From the sequence record PP886229: a DNA stretch of 64,000 nt. The stretch is one strand, 5' to 3'. The stretch comes from Escherichia phage vB_EcoM_E9. This document shows positions 1,856 through 60,783 of this stretch, piece by piece. A program made the translations under genes and the position numbers. Below the pieces are notes generated by a model, which did not search any database, had not been told where the DNA came from, and saw only the letters and a list, made by a program, of their open reading frames with translations. Numbering within the stretch: the first letter of the stretch is position 1; every line of letters begins with the position of its first letter.

Positions 1856-3208
1856 ATGTGGAATCCAATTGTTAATGTAGATATTACATTGAACACCGCA
1901 GGAACTACAAGAGAAGGTTTTGGGCTACCACTATTTTTAGCTTCAACAGATAACTTTGAAGAAAGAGTCCGTGGTTACACTTCCTTAACTGAAGTTGCTG
2001 AAGATTTCGATGAAAATTCTGCTGCATATAAGGCTGCTAAACAACTTTGGAGTCAGACTCCTAAAGTAACCCAGCTTTATATTGGTAGACGTGCTATGCA
2101 GTACACTGTATCAATTCCTGACTCTGTTACTGAAAGTACAGATTACTCTTTAACTGTAGCTGTGAGCGGTGGAATCTCTCAGCCATTCCAGTACACTTCA
2201 CAGGCATCAGATACCGCTGAGAAGGTGCTACAGCAGCTTAAAACACAGATTGAAGCAGAACCTTCTGTAAAAGACCTTGTTACTGTCAATGTAACTGGTG
2301 CTGGCGGTTCAGCAACAATGGTAATCACCAAAGCTGGCGACAATGACTTCGTGAAGGTTACTACTACAGCACAAACAGTGTCAATTGCAAGCACAACTGC
2401 TGACACAGCATCGACTGCTCTGGCAGCTATTGAAGCTTATTCAACTGACTGGTATTTCATTGCAGCAGAAGACAGAACTCAACAGTTTGTCTTAGCAATG
2501 GCTTCTGAGATTCAAGCTCGTAAGAAGATTTTCTTTACAGCTAACTCTGATGTAGCAGCACTGCAAGGTACAGAATTAGCCAGTGCAAATGACGTTCCAG
2601 CACAACTTGCTAAGAATAAGTACACTCGTACAGTTTGCTTGTGGCATCACACAGCAGCAGAAGATTATCCAGAAATGGCATACATCGCTTATGGTGCTCC
2701 ATATGATGCAGGTTCAATTGCTTGGGGTAACGCACAGTTAACTGGTGTAGCTGCTTCTCTACAGCCATCTAATCAGAGACCTCTGACAAGTATTCAGAAG
2801 TCAGCTTTAGATGCACGTCACTGTAACTTTATTGACCTTGATGGTGGTGTTCCAGTGGTTCGTAGAGGGATTACTTCTGGTGGGGAATGGATTGATATCA
2901 TCCGTGGTGTTGACTGGTTAGAATCAGACCTGAAAACTTCTCTGAGAGACTTGCTAATTAACCAGAAGGGTGGTAAGATTACTTATGATGATACTGGTAT
3001 TACCCGTATTCGTCAAGTCATTGAAACCTCTCTGCAAAGAGCAGTCAACAGAAACTTCCTGTCATCTTACACAGTTAATGTTCCTAAAGCCTCTCAAGTT
3101 GCTTTGGCAGACAAGAAAGCTCGCATCCTGAAAGATGTTACCTTCGCAGGTATCTTAGCAGGGGCTATCTTGGATGTTGACTTGAAAGGTACAGTGGCTT
3201 ACGAATAA
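1856..3208 (+). CDS. putative tail sheath protein
   Basis: 450 aa ORF followed by a 148 aa ORF, a strong terminator, a frameshift-capable chaperone pair and the tape measure gene (P2/Mu-like order sheath-tube-G/GT-TMP); assignment by synteny only. Confidence 0.5.
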   Translation: MWNPIVNVDITLNTAGTTREGFGLPLFLASTDNFEERVRGYTSLTEVAEDFDENSAAYKAAKQLWSQTPKVTQLYIGRRAMQYTVSIPDSVTESTDYSLTVAVSGGISQPFQYTSQASDTAEKVLQQLKTQIEAEPSVKDLVTVNVTGAGGSATMVITKAGDNDFVKVTTTAQTVSIASTTADTASTALAAIEAYSTDWYFIAAEDRTQQFVLAMASEIQARKKIFFTANSDVAALQGTELASANDVPAQLAKNKYTRTVCLWHHTAAEDYPEMAYIAYGAPYDAGSIAWGNAQLTGVAASLQPSNQRPLTSIQKSALDARHCNFIDLDGGVPVVRRGITSGGEWIDIIRGVDWLESDLKTSLRDLLINQKGGKITYDDTGITRIRQVIETSLQRAVNRNFLSSYTVNVPKASQVALADKKARILKDVTFAGILAGAILDVDLKGTVAYE

Positions 3209-3223
3209 TAGAGGTAAATTGGA

Positions 3224-3670
3224 ATGGCTATGTATCAGCAATATTCCCCTAAAGACGTTGTGTGTAGCTGGAATGGTATTGCCATTGAAGGCTTTGCCCC
3301 AGACTCATTCTTACGTCTACAGAGAACATCACCACTTGTGACACCAGTTGTAGGTGCAGGTGGTCAAGTTGCTCTGACAAGAAATGCAGACAAGACAGGT
3401 ACTATTGAGATTGAGTTAATGCAGACTTCTCTCTCTAATCAGATGCTTTCTGCAATTCAAGCTAAACAAGACAATATGGAACTTGAAGAAGATATCTCTT
3501 CTAACTTCGTAATCTACGACCCATCAGGCTCTGTTCTGGCAACCGGTATTAATGCTTGGTTGCAGGAATTACCACAGATTGAACTTGGTCGTGACCAGAA
3601 CTCTAAAACTTGGATTTTTGGTTGTGAGAAGCTAGACTACACTTCTACAATTCCAGCGTCAAGTGTTTAA
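3224..3670 (+). CDS. putative tail tube protein
   Basis: 148 aa ORF between putative sheath and chaperone genes, followed by a strong rho-independent terminator. Confidence 0.5.
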   Translation: MAMYQQYSPKDVVCSWNGIAIEGFAPDSFLRLQRTSPLVTPVVGAGGQVALTRNADKTGTIEIELMQTSLSNQMLSAIQAKQDNMELEEDISSNFVIYDPSGSVLATGINAWLQELPQIELGRDQNSKTWIFGCEKLDYTSTIPASSV

Positions 3671-3682
3671 TAAATCCTATAA

Positions 3683-3716
3683 GGGGGAGACTTTAAAAGG
3701 TCTTCCCCTTTTTTGT
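3683..3716 (+). terminator. rho-independent terminator after tube gene
   Basis: GGGGGAGAC-tttaaaag-GTCTTCCCC stem-loop followed by TTTTTTG. Confidence 0.6.
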
Positions 3717-3743
3717 TTCTTTTAAAAGTATTAAGGAATCACA

Positions 3744-4142
3744 ATGAAAACAGAATCTAGAGTAATTAATGGTAAGAAAGTAAATATCGTTCTGCTTGGG
3801 GCAAGAGATGGTATTAAGATGTCTATGAAGTTGGGTAAAATTGTTGTTCCAACATTTGCACAGATGCTGTCAAGCCTGACTGATAAAGATAAGAAAGAAG
3901 CTCCGATGGTTCCGTTTAAAGAACTTGTTGAAGCTTGTTTTGACAGAATTGAAGAAATTAACCTTGAAGAAATGGCTACCCTGTTATTTCAAGGGGCAAC
4001 TGTTGATGACTTCCCACTTAATATTGATACATACTTCCAAGCAAACTATGGTGAATTTATTGATTACTTAGCATTTGCGCTGGAGGCAAACTTCGGAAGT
4101 TTTTTCGAAGCAAGCATTTTCAAAAGCCTAACTTCTCAGTAA
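3744..4142 (+). CDS. tail assembly chaperone (gpG-like, short form)
   Basis: 132 aa ORF directly upstream of tape measure gene; -1 frame open over its 3' end and continuous with the next ORF. Confidence 0.5.
   Translation: MKTESRVINGKKVNIVLLGARDGIKMSMKLGKIVVPTFAQMLSSLTDKDKKEAPMVPFKELVEACFDRIEEINLEEMATLLFQGATVDDFPLNIDTYFQANYGEFIDYLAFALEANFGSFFEASIFKSLTSQ
4099..4106 (+). other. candidate -1 programmed frameshift slippery site (T TTT TTC)
   Basis: Heptamer TTTTTTC in zero frame (..agt ttt ttc..) about 40 nt before the stop of 3744..4142; -1 frame open from about 4068 to 4384. Confidence 0.4.
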
Positions 4143-4144
4143 AC

Positions 4145-4383
4145 ATGGGTAATACTCTACAGACACCACTGACTGATGCTGCTGTAGAGGCAACCTATGA
4201 AGAAGCAGACGAGATGAAATTTGTGCTTGCTATTTATGGTATGGAAGGGTGTAAAGAAACACTTGACCAACTCTTTGCTATGACATTCTCTGATTTATTA
4301 TCATTGAGACAATTTCTTGAAATTCAGAGGTCGTATAAAGAGGAAATTGCTTACAACGAACTTAGAAGAGCAGGAAAAATGTA

Positions 4384-4384
<1 letters not shown>
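4145..4384 (+). CDS. tail assembly chaperone frameshift extension (gpGT-like C-terminal part)
   Basis: 79 aa ORF in -1 frame relative to 3744..4142; its stop overlaps the tape measure ATG (TAATG). Confidence 0.45.
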
Positions 4385-9768
<5,384 letters not shown>

Positions 9769-58371: not shown

Positions 58372-58668
58372 ATGAAGTTAACAAATAAAGTCCGTGAAAA
58401 TTTAAGCAAGTTGCTCAACAAAATCAATTTTATTGAGACATCAAGAAATAGTCATGATGTTATGGAATGGTTACACGGAAAAATCAAAGGCCGTCGTGTA
58501 GTGATTTGCTTATGGAATAGTTGCAGGGAATATAAAAAACCTGTATTACAAGTCAATATCTATGATGATACTTTTAAAAGCCCTGTAAAGTCTAAAAGTG
58601 ATTTATTAGAATCCTATGAGATAACTGTAAATGGCAAAGTATCACGTAAAGAGGAAACACCATGTTAA
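58372..58668 (+). CDS. early small protein E3
   Basis: 98 aa. Confidence 0.5.
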   Translation: MKLTNKVRENLSKLLNKINFIETSRNSHDVMEWLHGKIKGRRVVICLWNSCREYKKPVLQVNIYDDTFKSPVKSKSDLLESYEITVNGKVSRKEETPC

Positions 58669-58994
58669 TGACTGGTATCACTGCAATCATTGCCATTTTC
58701 GCGCTATATAAGGCATATAAAGCCTATAATCTAGCAAATAAGGCAATCACACAGCAGGTTAGCAATAGCCTTGTAGAAAGCTTTCTAGGGCGTCTCAGTG
58801 ATGAGCAAATAAAGCGGTTAGAAATGAGCTTCAGATTCAAAGCGAAAACCTATCAGATAAGTGACATCTTCAAGGATGATTTCCAGTTAGTCGATGATTA
58901 TAATTCTCTGATAAATGCTTTAAATATCAGTGACTTAAAAGACTACTACGCTGTAATTGTTCAAGAATTGAGCAAACGAAAAAATTTCTCTTGA
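58662..58994 (+). CDS. early small membrane protein E4
   Basis: 110 aa, N-terminal TM helix (GITAIIAIFALYKAY); overlaps E3 stop. Confidence 0.45.
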   Translation: MLMTGITAIIAIFALYKAYKAYNLANKAITQQVSNSLVESFLGRLSDEQIKRLEMSFRFKAKTYQISDIFKDDFQLVDDYNSLINALNISDLKDYYAVIVQELSKRKNFS

Positions 58995-60240: not shown

Positions 60241-60783
60241 ATGAAATGCTTTCACGGTACTACTCAAGAAAACTTCGTCAACCTGATTAATAACGGTGAT
60301 AAACCATCAGGCGCATGGAATTGTTCGGATATGGATGGCAATTTTTACGTTTATCCAGAAAATAAAATCTATGGCGACGATGAGGAAGAAATAATCTCTG
60401 AAGGCATTCAACAAGCTTTAGGTAATGCCACTATAACGGCAGCTTTTCAGATGAAAACTCAAAACATTGTTATCTTGGAACTTGATATTCCAGAAGATGA
60501 GTTGAATGATGATTATTCTTGTGATAATATGTCGAGTGTGGCAAGTTTTACAGAGTATTTTGATATAAGCTGGATTAAAAAGGTTTATATCACTGAATTT
60601 AATGCTATGTTTTCACCTTTTTGTCTTCCTTCACTGGATAACCCGAACTTAAACTATCTTGATGAGTCTCTGGAACTTCTCGCTAAAAGTGTTCAGCAAT
60701 CGGACAGTATTCAGGTTTTTTGTGACATCATGGATACACTAACAGGAAACATTGCAGAAGAGGATTTGAAGAGTTTTTTCTAA
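60241..60783 (+). CDS. early acidic protein E8
   Basis: 180 aa, strongly acidic (..GDDEEEIISEG.., ..LDIPEDELNDDYSCDN..). Confidence 0.5.
   Translation: MKCFHGTTQENFVNLINNGDKPSGAWNCSDMDGNFYVYPENKIYGDDEEEIISEGIQQALGNATITAAFQMKTQNIVILELDIPEDELNDDYSCDNMSSVASFTEYFDISWIKKVYITEFNAMFSPFCLPSLDNPNLNYLDESLELLAKSVQQSDSIQVFCDIMDTLTGNIAEEDLKSFF

What the first reader, a model, noticed from the sequence alone, without database searches (positions are those of the whole stretch)
3744..4384. Candidate -1 programmed frameshift in the tail assembly chaperone pair
Between the putative tube gene and the tape measure gene, the 132 aa ORF contains T TTT TTC about 40 nt before its stop, and the -1 frame is open from about 4068 through the 79 aa ORF to 4384. 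A -1 slip there would yield a G/GT-like fusion, the conserved arrangement in tailed phages. Absolute coordinates of the heptamer are uncertain by 1 nt.
Basis: partly seen in the sequence, partly recalled or inferred. Interest (0 to 1): 0.45.

Follow-up and report, generated by a model that had tools for sequence, protein, structure and literature searches.

The report
Phage tail chaperone programmed frameshift site
This is the usual programmed ribosome slip by which a tailed phage (here a Felix O1-like coliphage) makes a short and a long tail-assembly chaperone from one gene start; it looks real, but it is already recognised in sister phages and is ordinary.

Summary
The window is a Felixounavirus, 99% identical to published coliphages. 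Between the tube gene (3224-3670) and the tape measure gene (4384-6612) lies a 132-aa tail assembly chaperone ORF (3744-4142; Pfam Phage_TAC_15). It holds an in-phase T_TTT_TTC at 4100-4106, 40 nt before its stop. The -1 frame is open from 4064 to 4384. A -1 slip would give a 213-aa fusion, join(3744..4106,4106..4384).

Comparative evidence is strong. T_TTT_TT[C/T] sits at the homologous site in all 86 related loci checked. These form 21 lineages below 50% identity, with GC from 37 to 65%, and include Vequintavirinae. The Ser/Cys codon before it switches between AGT, TCT and TGT but always ends in T. Every complete locus has a -1 extension of 76-123 codons (one locus is cut by a contig end), and in most sampled lineages it ends at or near the tape measure start. 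It usually has no early start codon. ATG 4145 has no Shine-Dalgarno sequence.

No stimulatory RNA structure follows the site. A strong internal Shine-Dalgarno-like GGAGG lies 13 nt upstream and is enriched across the family.

The frameshift is already annotated or stated for sister Felix O1-like phages (Maleficent, Moogle, Mijalis), though not in any of the Felixounavirus records I inspected. Nobody has shown it experimentally in this family. Verdict: real, well supported, already known, low interest.

The parts
3224..3670 (+). Tail tube protein gene (context: upstream boundary of the chaperone pair)
   Evidence: phrog_280 and Pfam KPP10_Orf10. Matches PDB 9mt4_P 'Tube protein' at E = 2.9e-96. 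Bas63 gp14 tube protein, per PMC12609058.
3744..4142 (+). Tail assembly (tape measure) chaperone ORF, 132 aa: the zero-frame 'G-like' product
   Evidence: Pfam PF21822 Phage_TAC_15, 71.5 bits against a cut-off of 22. phrog_1613, E = 8e-49. SD-like AAGGA upstream of the start, duplex energy -6.1 kcal/mol.
4082..4086 (+). Internal Shine-Dalgarno-like GGAGG, 13 nt 5' of the heptamer: candidate 5' stimulator (inferred)
   Evidence: Anti-SD duplex energy -9.3 kcal/mol, within the top 0.3% of windows in the locus. GAG, which yields GAGG, occurs in 17 of 21 lineages against 8.9 expected, P about 1.6e-4. The spacing falls within the 9-14 nt reported for -1 stimulators (PMC5009743).
4100..4106 (+). Slippery heptamer T_TTT_TTC in X_XXY_YYZ phase: the site of the -1 shift
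   Evidence: Conserved in 86 of 86 related loci. Probability about 1e-18 from codon usage alone over 21 lineages.
4064..4142 (+). Overlap zone where both the zero and -1 frames are open (dual coding downstream of 4100)
   Evidence: Third-codon-position identity to the Hafnia, Erwinia and Pectobacterium phages is 0.77 in the block just after the slip, against 0.17-0.53 in all other blocks.
4106..4384 (+). -1 frame extension ('T-like' part, 92 aa plus stop). The fusion CDS is join(3744..4106,4106..4384), 213 aa
   Evidence: phrog_4963, E = 3e-55. The fusion matches phrog_3840 continuously across the junction, residues 1-151. The stop overlaps the tape measure ATG (TAATG).
4145..4147 (+). ATG that makes the extension look like a separate 79-aa gene; probably not a real independent start
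   Evidence: No SD: duplex energy +0.7 kcal/mol, rank 85 of 90 ORF starts in the window. This ATG is not conserved: in 20 other lineages the first ATG in the extension is at codon 28-74 or absent.
4384..6612 (+). Tape measure protein gene (context: downstream boundary)
   Evidence: phrog_4036, E = 0; Pfam TMP_3.

Best explanation

Most ribosomes that start at ATG 3744 read through to TAA 4140-4142 and make the 132-aa chaperone. A minority slip back one nucleotide. The slip happens while tRNA-Phe molecules occupy UUU (4101-4103, P site) and UUC (4104-4106, A site); they re-pair with UUU/UUU at 4100-4105. Those ribosomes continue with CGA (Arg) in the -1 frame to TAA 4382-4384. The result is a 213-aa fusion that shares its first 121 residues with the short form.

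By analogy with lambda G/GT and P2 E/E+E', the shared N-terminal part would coat the tape measure protein. The frameshift-only C-terminal part would recruit the tube protein, so a fixed low ratio of long to short form is set by the slip frequency.

The slip is probably helped by pairing of the 16S rRNA 3' end with GGAGG (4082-4086), 13 nt upstream. It is not helped by a downstream RNA structure.

Shown: the gene identities, the sequence anatomy and its conservation. Inferred: that the slip occurs, its frequency, the role of the SD-like element and the roles of the two proteins.
For: 1. Anatomy. An in-phase T_TTT_TTC lies 40 nt before the stop. The -1 frame is open from 4064 to 4384 and ends on the tape measure start.

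2. Identity. The gene order is sheath, tube, TAC, TMP, with Pfam Phage_TAC_15 and PHROG TAC hits. The conceptual fusion aligns continuously across the junction to phrog_3840.

3. Deep conservation at synonymous sites.
- All 79 IMG/VR loci plus 7 GenBank/window loci keep T_TTT_TT[C/T].
- The codon before it is AGT, TCT or TGT, but always ends in T.
- Over 21 lineages below 50% identity and 37-65% GC, codon usage alone gives P about 1e-18.

4. Frame structure. The -1 frame stays open for 76-123 codons after the site in every complete locus (L038 is cut by the contig end at 80 codons). The zero frame stops after 9-44 codons. In most of the 21 sampled lineages the extension ends within a few nt of the tape measure start; in some the start lies up to 65 nt away, and in one none was found.

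5. No independent start. ATG 4145 has the fifth-weakest SD of 90 ORF starts. In other lineages there is no ATG until codon 28-74 of the extension, or none at all.

6. Suppressed third-position variation just after the slip site.

7. Of 79 in-phase heptamers in the window, this is the only one with a long -1 continuation.

8. SD-like element. It is in the top 5% of anti-SD affinity in 17 of 21 lineages, at a fixed 13-nt spacing. The literature range for -1 stimulation is 9-14 nt.

9. UUY A-site codons and all-pyrimidine heptamers are shift-prone in E. coli (PMC4066793).

10. The orthologous pair is deposited as a joined CDS in phage Maleficent. The frameshift is stated for Moogle and Mijalis.
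Against: - I found no experimental detection of the fusion for any Ounavirinae phage. The Bas63 cryo-EM and PhageMaP papers do not address it.
- There is no stimulatory structure 3-52 nt downstream: z = +0.8 in the window and mean z = -0.6 over 21 lineages.
- The SD-like element is missing in 4 of 21 lineages (Hafnia phage, Erwinia phage, CR8, L064), so it cannot be essential.
- In this genus the ATG at 4145 lies 2 nt after the zero-frame stop, so termination-reinitiation could also yield a free 79-aa protein.
- The lineages are phylogenetically related, so the P-values overstate independence.
Confidence: 0.87

Rival explanations
1. Transcriptional slippage. RNA polymerase adds one extra U while copying the T6 run (4100-4105). 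Standard translation of that minority of mRNAs then gives the same 213-aa fusion without any ribosomal slip.
For: The site is a homopolymer run. One extra T gives exactly the fusion frame, as seen in the deposited sequence of phage CL1, which has T7 and a single 213-aa CDS. Some lineages have runs of 7-8 T. A weak hairpin followed by the T-run was flagged as terminator-like at 4080-4106 and could pause the polymerase.
Against: Productive slippage in bacteria is described for runs of about 9 A or T (PMC5009743). Here 71 of 79 loci cap the run at exactly six with a C; selection for slippage would favour longer runs. The conserved SD-like element at the spacing typical of -1 ribosomal stimulators has no role in transcription. 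The sequence data cannot formally separate the two mechanisms.
Confidence: 0.06
2. Two separate genes with no recoding. The 79-aa ORF is translated on its own from ATG 4145, for example by termination-reinitiation 2 nt after the TAA of the upstream ORF. The heptamer is a by-product of a conserved Phe-Phe dipeptide.
For: This is how every Felixounavirus record I inspected annotates the region. The stop and ATG are only 2 nt apart. In-phase slippery heptamers are frequent by chance.
Against: There is no SD before 4145. The ATG is absent in other lineages, while the conserved part of the extension lies upstream of any start codon there. Phe-Phe conservation does not explain why the preceding codon always ends in T and the first Phe is always TTT, even in genomes of 60-65% GC. 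The -1 frame is open and conserved upstream of 4145.
Confidence: 0.04
3. Sequencing or assembly indel. The true gene is a single 213-aa ORF, and the T6 run in the window is a homopolymer miscall of T7.
For: Phage CL1 is deposited with T7 and one continuous ORF.
Against: The split arrangement with T6 (or an equivalent in-phase run) is found in 85 of 86 independent loci from many laboratories, platforms and metagenomes, across 21 divergent lineages. CL1 is the outlier.
Confidence: 0.01

Closest known systems
Tape measure chaperone frameshift of Mooglevirus phages (Citrobacter phages Moogle, Mijalis, Maleficent; Felix O1-like, subfamily Ounavirinae)
   Same: The gene pair is orthologous, about 70% identical to the fusion. 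The heptamer and flanks are identical (AAG TTTTTTC GA). The position between tube and tape measure genes is the same. Maleficent is deposited as a joined CDS, and the frameshift is stated in PMC4319497 and PMC5543628.
   Different: They belong to a different genus. The zero-frame tail is 3 codons longer, and the internal ATG sits elsewhere. None of the Felixounavirus records I inspected carries the join.
Bacteriophage P2 E / E+E' (Christie et al. 2002, as summarised in PMC3091744)
   Same: P2 is also a contractile-tailed phage. It uses a -1 shift on a T-run heptamer (TTTTTTG) near the end of the gene upstream of the tape measure gene. Two products share an N-terminus (91 and 142 aa), and there is no downstream RNA structure.
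   Different: There is no detectable sequence relationship: no P2 GpE family hit at E <= 0.01. The last base of the heptamer is C, not G. The proteins here are larger (132 and 213 aa). Only P2 has experimental proof.
Bacteriophage lambda G / GT (Levin et al. 1993; Xu, Hendrix and Duda 2004; described in PMC5009743)
   Same: The gene position, the -1 direction, the small proportion of long product and the proposed division of labour are the same: the shared part binds the tape measure protein and the extension binds the tube protein.
   Different: Lambda is a siphovirus. Its heptamer is G_GGA_AAG (from my own knowledge), and its chaperone belongs to a different protein family.
E. coli dnaX and IS-element -1 frameshift cassettes
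   Same: They have an internal Shine-Dalgarno-like sequence 9-14 nt 5' of an X_XXY_YYZ heptamer, acting through the anti-SD of the translating ribosome. Here GGAGG lies 13 nt upstream.
   Different: dnaX also has a strong 3' stem-loop and reaches about 50% efficiency. No 3' structure is present here, so a low efficiency is expected. The SD role here is inferred only.

Membership tests
G/GT-type tail assembly chaperone frameshift pair (Xu, Hendrix and Duda 2004 definition) | Two ORFs located between the major tail (tube) gene and the tape measure gene | tested here: met
   The order is tube 3224-3670, ORFs 3744-4142 and 4145-4384, then TMP 4384-6612.
G/GT-type tail assembly chaperone frameshift pair (Xu, Hendrix and Duda 2004 definition) | The second ORF overlaps the end of the first in the -1 frame, with an in-phase slippery sequence inside the overlap | tested here: met
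   The -1 frame is open from 4064. T_TTT_TTC lies at 4100-4106 in X_XXY_YYZ phase. The zero-frame stop is at 4140.
G/GT-type tail assembly chaperone frameshift pair (Xu, Hendrix and Duda 2004 definition) | The arrangement is conserved among relatives even where the sequence has diverged | tested here: met
   Seen in 86 of 86 loci and 21 lineages below 50% identity. Synonymous positions of the heptamer are invariant.
G/GT-type tail assembly chaperone frameshift pair (Xu, Hendrix and Duda 2004 definition) | The second ORF lacks its own translation start | tested here: met
   ATG 4145 has no SD, rank 85 of 90. In other lineages the first ATG is at codon 28-74 of the extension or absent. Reinitiation at 4145 in this genus is not excluded.
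G/GT-type tail assembly chaperone frameshift pair (Xu, Hendrix and Duda 2004 definition) | Both a short and a long product are made from one start in a fixed ratio; both are needed for tail assembly and absent from virions | not testable with these tools
   This needs protein detection and genetics. I found no such data for Ounavirinae.
Pfam PF21822 Phage_TAC_15 | Score above the curated gathering threshold | tested here: met
   71.5 bits against a cut-off of 22, covering residues 9-124.
P2 gpE / E+E' protein family | Sequence homology to P2 gpE | tested here: not met
   The only Pfam hit at E <= 0.01 is Phage_TAC_15. The site works like P2 E/E+E' but is not a member of that protein family.
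dnaX-type SD-stimulated -1 frameshift cassette | SD-like sequence 9-14 nt 5' of the heptamer | tested here: met
   GGAGG at 4082-4086, spacing 13 nt, duplex energy -9.3 kcal/mol. Its function is not tested.
dnaX-type SD-stimulated -1 frameshift cassette | Stable stem-loop or pseudoknot 5-9 nt 3' of the heptamer | tested here: not met
   For 4107-4150 the MFE is -2.5 kcal/mol, z = +1.1. Mean z over the family is -0.6. The nearest hairpin starts 38 nt or more downstream.

The most novel reading that the evidence does not exclude
The signal may be more than the heptamer. It could be a structure-independent cassette, GAGG-N13-U_UUU_UUY, embedded in the most conserved peptide of the protein (L-E-[A/V]-N-[F/Y]-[G/S]-S-F-F). 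This cassette is shared by Ounavirinae, Vequintavirinae and many uncultivated myophages with GC from 37 to 65%. The internal Shine-Dalgarno-like element would be a conserved 5' stimulator that sets the chaperone ratio. As far as I know, such a stimulator has not been described for phage tail chaperone frameshifts. It would also imply that the frameshift is systematically unannotated in rV5-like and most Felix O1-like genomes.
Probability: 0.35. Interest if true: 0.3.

Novelty: already known. Interest (0 to 1): 0.15.

Why it matters
The practical value is for annotation. None of the Felixounavirus records I inspected, nor the Vequintavirinae record (CR8), carries the join: they list two separate chaperone genes, or miss the second ORF altogether. 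The correct feature here is join(3744..4106,4106..4384).

Biologically it adds one more well-conserved example of the G/GT strategy in contractile-tailed phages. It also offers a clean natural test case for an SD-stimulated, structure-free -1 frameshift on U_UUU_UUC in E. coli. It does not open a new question.

Tried and rejected
Folding 4107-4150 and 4107-4200 shows nothing near the site. The same is true in 21 lineages. A hairpin at about 4144-4199 is conserved in three genera, but it starts 38 nt or more after the heptamer, so I rejected it as a classical stimulator.
- **Rfam scan of 3650-4450.** Only sub-threshold chance hits.
- **PDB sequence search with the chaperone profile.** Only spurious coronavirus nsp8 hits at E about 0.06, so there is no solved relative.
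- **tRNA scan of the window**, looking for a phage tRNA-Phe that might affect slippage. None lies in this window.
- **Literature search for experimental proof in Felix O1-like phages.** None found. The PhageMaP supplements and Christie et al. 2002 are not held.
- **The weak hairpin 4080-4096 plus T-run**, flagged as terminator-like. I judged it a by-product of the Leu-Glu...Phe-Gly codons. It would lie inside the ribosome during the slip, and I kept it only as a point for the transcriptional-slippage rival.
- **Not run.** I did not run the large protein-database searches or structure prediction. The family assignment was already unambiguous, and the result would not change the verdict.

Full report
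**What the window is.** The region 3200-4700 is 95-99% identical to more than 200 deposited Felix O1-like phages. The best match is Escherichia phage HMD-P10 at 99.3%. The records that carry a full taxonomy are placed in genus Felixounavirus, subfamily Ounavirinae. The local gene order on the + strand is as follows.
- Tail sheath, 1856-3208: phrog_205 and DUF3383.
- Tail tube, 3224-3670: phrog_280 and KPP10_Orf10. It is nearly identical to the solved 'Tube protein' chains 9mt4_P and 9c39_G at E about 1e-96, and corresponds to Bas63 gp14 in PMC12609058.
- A 132-aa ORF, 3744-4142.
- A 79-aa ORF, 4145-4384.
- The tape measure protein, 4384-6612: phrog_4036 at E = 0, and Pfam TMP_3.

**Checking the observation.**
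- The 132-aa ORF starts at ATG 3744 and ends at TAA 4140-4142.
- Its zero-frame codons around the site are AGT 4098-4100, TTT 4101-4103 and TTC 4104-4106. The heptamer T_TTT_TTC therefore sits at 4100-4106 in exact X_XXY_YYZ phase, 40 nt before the stop.
- The -1 frame is open from 4064 to TAA 4382-4384. The final A of that stop is the A of the tape measure ATG. The +1 frame is closed.
- A -1 slip gives join(3744..4106,4106..4384): 121 + 92 = 213 aa, reading ...LEANFGSFF|RSKHFQKPNFSVNMGNTLQ....
The 1-nt uncertainty is resolved.

**Is it more than chance?** The heptamer alone is not remarkable. I counted 79 in-phase X_XXY_YYZ heptamers in 19,390 codons of 90 ORFs in the window. That gives roughly a 10% chance of one falling in a 26-codon overlap. 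What is unusual is the combination. Among those 79, only the site at 4100 leads into a -1 frame that continues far beyond the zero-frame stop: 81 codons, against 22 for the runner-up.

**Protein identity.** The 132-aa ORF scores 71.5 bits on Pfam Phage_TAC_15 (cut-off 22) and E = 8e-49 on phrog_1613, 'tail assembly chaperone'. The 79-aa ORF matches phrog_4963, also 'tail assembly chaperone'. The conceptual fusion aligns without a break across the junction (residues 1-151) to phrog_3840, and scores better than the unshifted protein (8e-48 against 6e-43). Proteins continuous through this junction are therefore already in the phage protein families.

**Comparative test in GenBank phages.** I fetched the locus from progressively more distant phages:
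- Mooglevirus (Maleficent, KMM4; about 70% identity to the fusion);
- Suspvirus (EcSzw_1; 81%);
- Hafnia phage SarahDanielle (44%);
- Erwinia phage Tian (Kolesnikvirus; 43%);
- Pectobacterium phage Wc4-1 (41%);
- Cronobacter phage CR8 (subfamily Vequintavirinae; 26%).

All carry T_TTT_TTC in phase at the homologous position, in the motif NFGSFF or NYGCFF. In all of them the -1 frame runs on for 92-123 codons.

**Comparative test in IMG/VR.** A scan with the peptide pattern E[AKV]N[FY][GS][SC]FF does not constrain codon choice. It returned 79 loci. The results were:
- all 79 have T_TTT_TT[C/T], with C in 71 and T in 8;
- the preceding Ser codon is AGT in 66 and TCT in 13, never a codon ending in another base;
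- the first Phe is always TTT;
- the zero frame stops 9-44 codons later;
- the -1 frame stays open for 76-116 codons.

**Statistics on the comparative set.** Together with the GenBank loci, the sequences form 21 clusters at 50% identity, with locus GC from 0.37 to 0.65. Using each locus's own codon usage, the chance that all 21 have NNT + TTT is about 1e-18. The lineages are related, so this overstates independence. Even so, the switch between Ser codon families and the persistence of the T-run in GC-rich genomes show selection on the nucleotides themselves.

**The second ORF is not an independent gene.** ATG 4145 has no Shine-Dalgarno sequence. Its anti-SD duplex energy is +0.7 kcal/mol, rank 85 of 90 ORF starts, where the median is -5.9. 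This ATG is peculiar to the genus and its close relatives. In the other 20 lineages the first ATG in the extension is at codon 28-74 of 76-123, or absent in three of them. Residues conserved with the window's extension (for example P.T.AAV...Y and CKET) lie upstream of any start codon in the Hafnia and Erwinia phages. In most of the 21 sampled lineages the extension ends within a few nucleotides of the tape measure start; in some the start lies up to 65 nt away, and in one none was found. Third-codon-position identity between the window and the three distant Ounavirinae is 0.77 in the ten codons after the slip. Elsewhere it is 0.17-0.53. That is the expected signature of dual coding.

**How it probably works.** tRNA-Phe on UUU (P site) and UUC (A site) can re-pair with UUU/UUU one base back. 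UUY A-site codons and all-pyrimidine heptamers are shift-prone in E. coli (PMC4066793). I looked for stimulators.
- *Downstream.* There is none at the usual distance. For 4107-4150 the MFE is -2.5 kcal/mol with z = +1.1. Over 21 lineages the 50 nt after the site have a mean z of -0.6. P2 E/E+E' likewise has no downstream structure (PMC3091744).
- *Upstream.* GGAGG at 4082-4086 lies 13 nt before the heptamer. Its predicted pairing with the 16S 3' end is -9.3 kcal/mol. That is stronger than most real ribosome-binding sites in the window and within the top 0.3% of windows in the locus.
- *Conservation of the upstream element.* The Glu codon that creates it is GAG in 17 of 21 lineages against 8.9 expected from codon usage (P about 1.6e-4). 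In those 17 lineages the element is in the top 5% of anti-SD affinity.
- *Literature.* Internal SD sequences 9-14 nt upstream stimulate -1 shifts in dnaX and many IS elements (PMC5009743).

I therefore infer an SD-assisted, structure-free, low-efficiency -1 shift. The SD element is absent from four lineages, so it can only be a modulator.

**Rivals.**
- *Transcriptional slippage on the T-run* would give the same protein and cannot be formally excluded from sequence. But a run capped at six T in 71 of 79 loci is short for that mechanism, since runs of about 9 are cited in PMC5009743. The SD-like element would also have no role in transcription.
- *Separate translation of the 79-aa ORF* by reinitiation 2 nt after the stop may occur in this genus in addition. 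It cannot explain the family-wide pattern.
- *A homopolymer sequencing error in the window* is ruled out by the 85 other loci with the same arrangement. The outlier is phage CL1, deposited with T7 and a single 213-aa CDS. That is more likely a miscall in that record, or a rare mutant.

**Comparison with what is known.** The arrangement meets every sequence-level criterion of the conserved tail chaperone frameshift described by Xu, Hendrix and Duda (2004). The criteria that need protein detection and genetics cannot be tested here.
- The closest experimentally proven analogue is P2 E/E+E'. It is a myovirus, uses TTTTTTG, gives 91-aa and 142-aa products and has no 3' structure. There is no sequence homology to it.
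- The feature is already recognised for this phage group. Citrobacter phage Maleficent (Mooglevirus) carries the orthologous pair as a joined CDS with the same heptamer. [quoted passage not shown]
- None of the Felixounavirus records I inspected carries a join: HMD-P10, Shy, VpaE1_ev78, ekra, Felix O1 itself, Pr103Blw, ESCO49 and SUT_S720 list two separate CDS, and CL1 lists a single 213-aa CDS.
- The Erwinia, Pectobacterium and CR8 records either miss the second ORF or call only a fragment of it.

**Verdict.** Confidence that a -1 ribosomal frameshift produces a 213-aa fusion is about 0.87. It is an already known, textbook kind of feature, already annotated in sister phages, so interest is low.

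The only mildly new points are the family-wide conserved SD-like element at a fixed 13-nt spacing, and the fact that the same cassette extends unannotated into Vequintavirinae and many uncultivated phages.

Noticed in passing
window 3681-3720: A strong intrinsic-terminator-like hairpin (13-bp stem AAGGGGGAGAC...GTCTTCCCCTT followed by TTTTTGTTT) lies in the 73-nt gap between the tube gene and the chaperone gene. It may attenuate transcription, so the chaperones and tape measure would be made at lower levels than sheath and tube.
   Followed up: no
window 4144-4199 (main stem about 4155-4189): A hairpin inside the -1 extension has an MFE of about -20 kcal/mol. The 94-nt segment has z = -2.3. 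It is conserved in Felixounavirus, Mooglevirus and Suspvirus, with compensatory changes at 4 of 16 pairs. It begins 38 nt or more after the slip site, too far for a classical stimulator, and its outer stem covers ATG 4145. It does not appear conserved in the Hafnia or Erwinia phage sequences (by eye).
   Followed up: partly
L004 (Escherichia phage CL1, OK040806.1) 957-963: This record has seven T instead of six at the slip site, so the chaperone is deposited as one in-frame 213-aa CDS. It is probably a homopolymer miscall. If it is real, the phage would make only the long form by standard decoding.
   Followed up: partly
L011 (Cronobacter phage CR8, NC_024354.1) 1848-1854: The same in-phase T_TTT_TTC sits in the homologous NYGCFF motif of a Vequintavirinae (rV5-like) phage. 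Its -1 extension is 123 codons long and runs almost to the tape measure gene. The record annotates a 158-aa chaperone and a separate 60-aa hypothetical protein. The frameshift seems unannotated in that subfamily.
   Followed up: partly
window 4080-4106: A weak 6-bp hairpin (CTGGAG/CTTCGG, with two G-T pairs) directly precedes the T-run and was flagged as terminator-like. It overlaps the SD-like GGAGG. It is probably a by-product of the conserved Leu-Glu...Phe-Gly codons.
   Followed up: no
window 58979-58988 and 60774-60780: Other in-phase slippery heptamers lie close to gene ends. AAAAAAT and AAATTTC at the end of ORF 58662-58994 have -1 continuations about 22 codons past the stop. TTTTTTC at the end of ORF 60241-60783 has 8 codons past the stop. 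These are probably chance.
   Followed up: no
L003 (Escherichia phage VpaE1_ev78, LR597663.1): Product names in this record look displaced along the gene order. The sheath is labelled 'Ad1 adapter protein', the tube 'Ne1 neck protein', the chaperone ORFs 'Hc1 head closure' and 'Tc1 tail completion', and the tape measure 'Tail sheath protein'. This is an annotation artefact in the public record.
   Followed up: no
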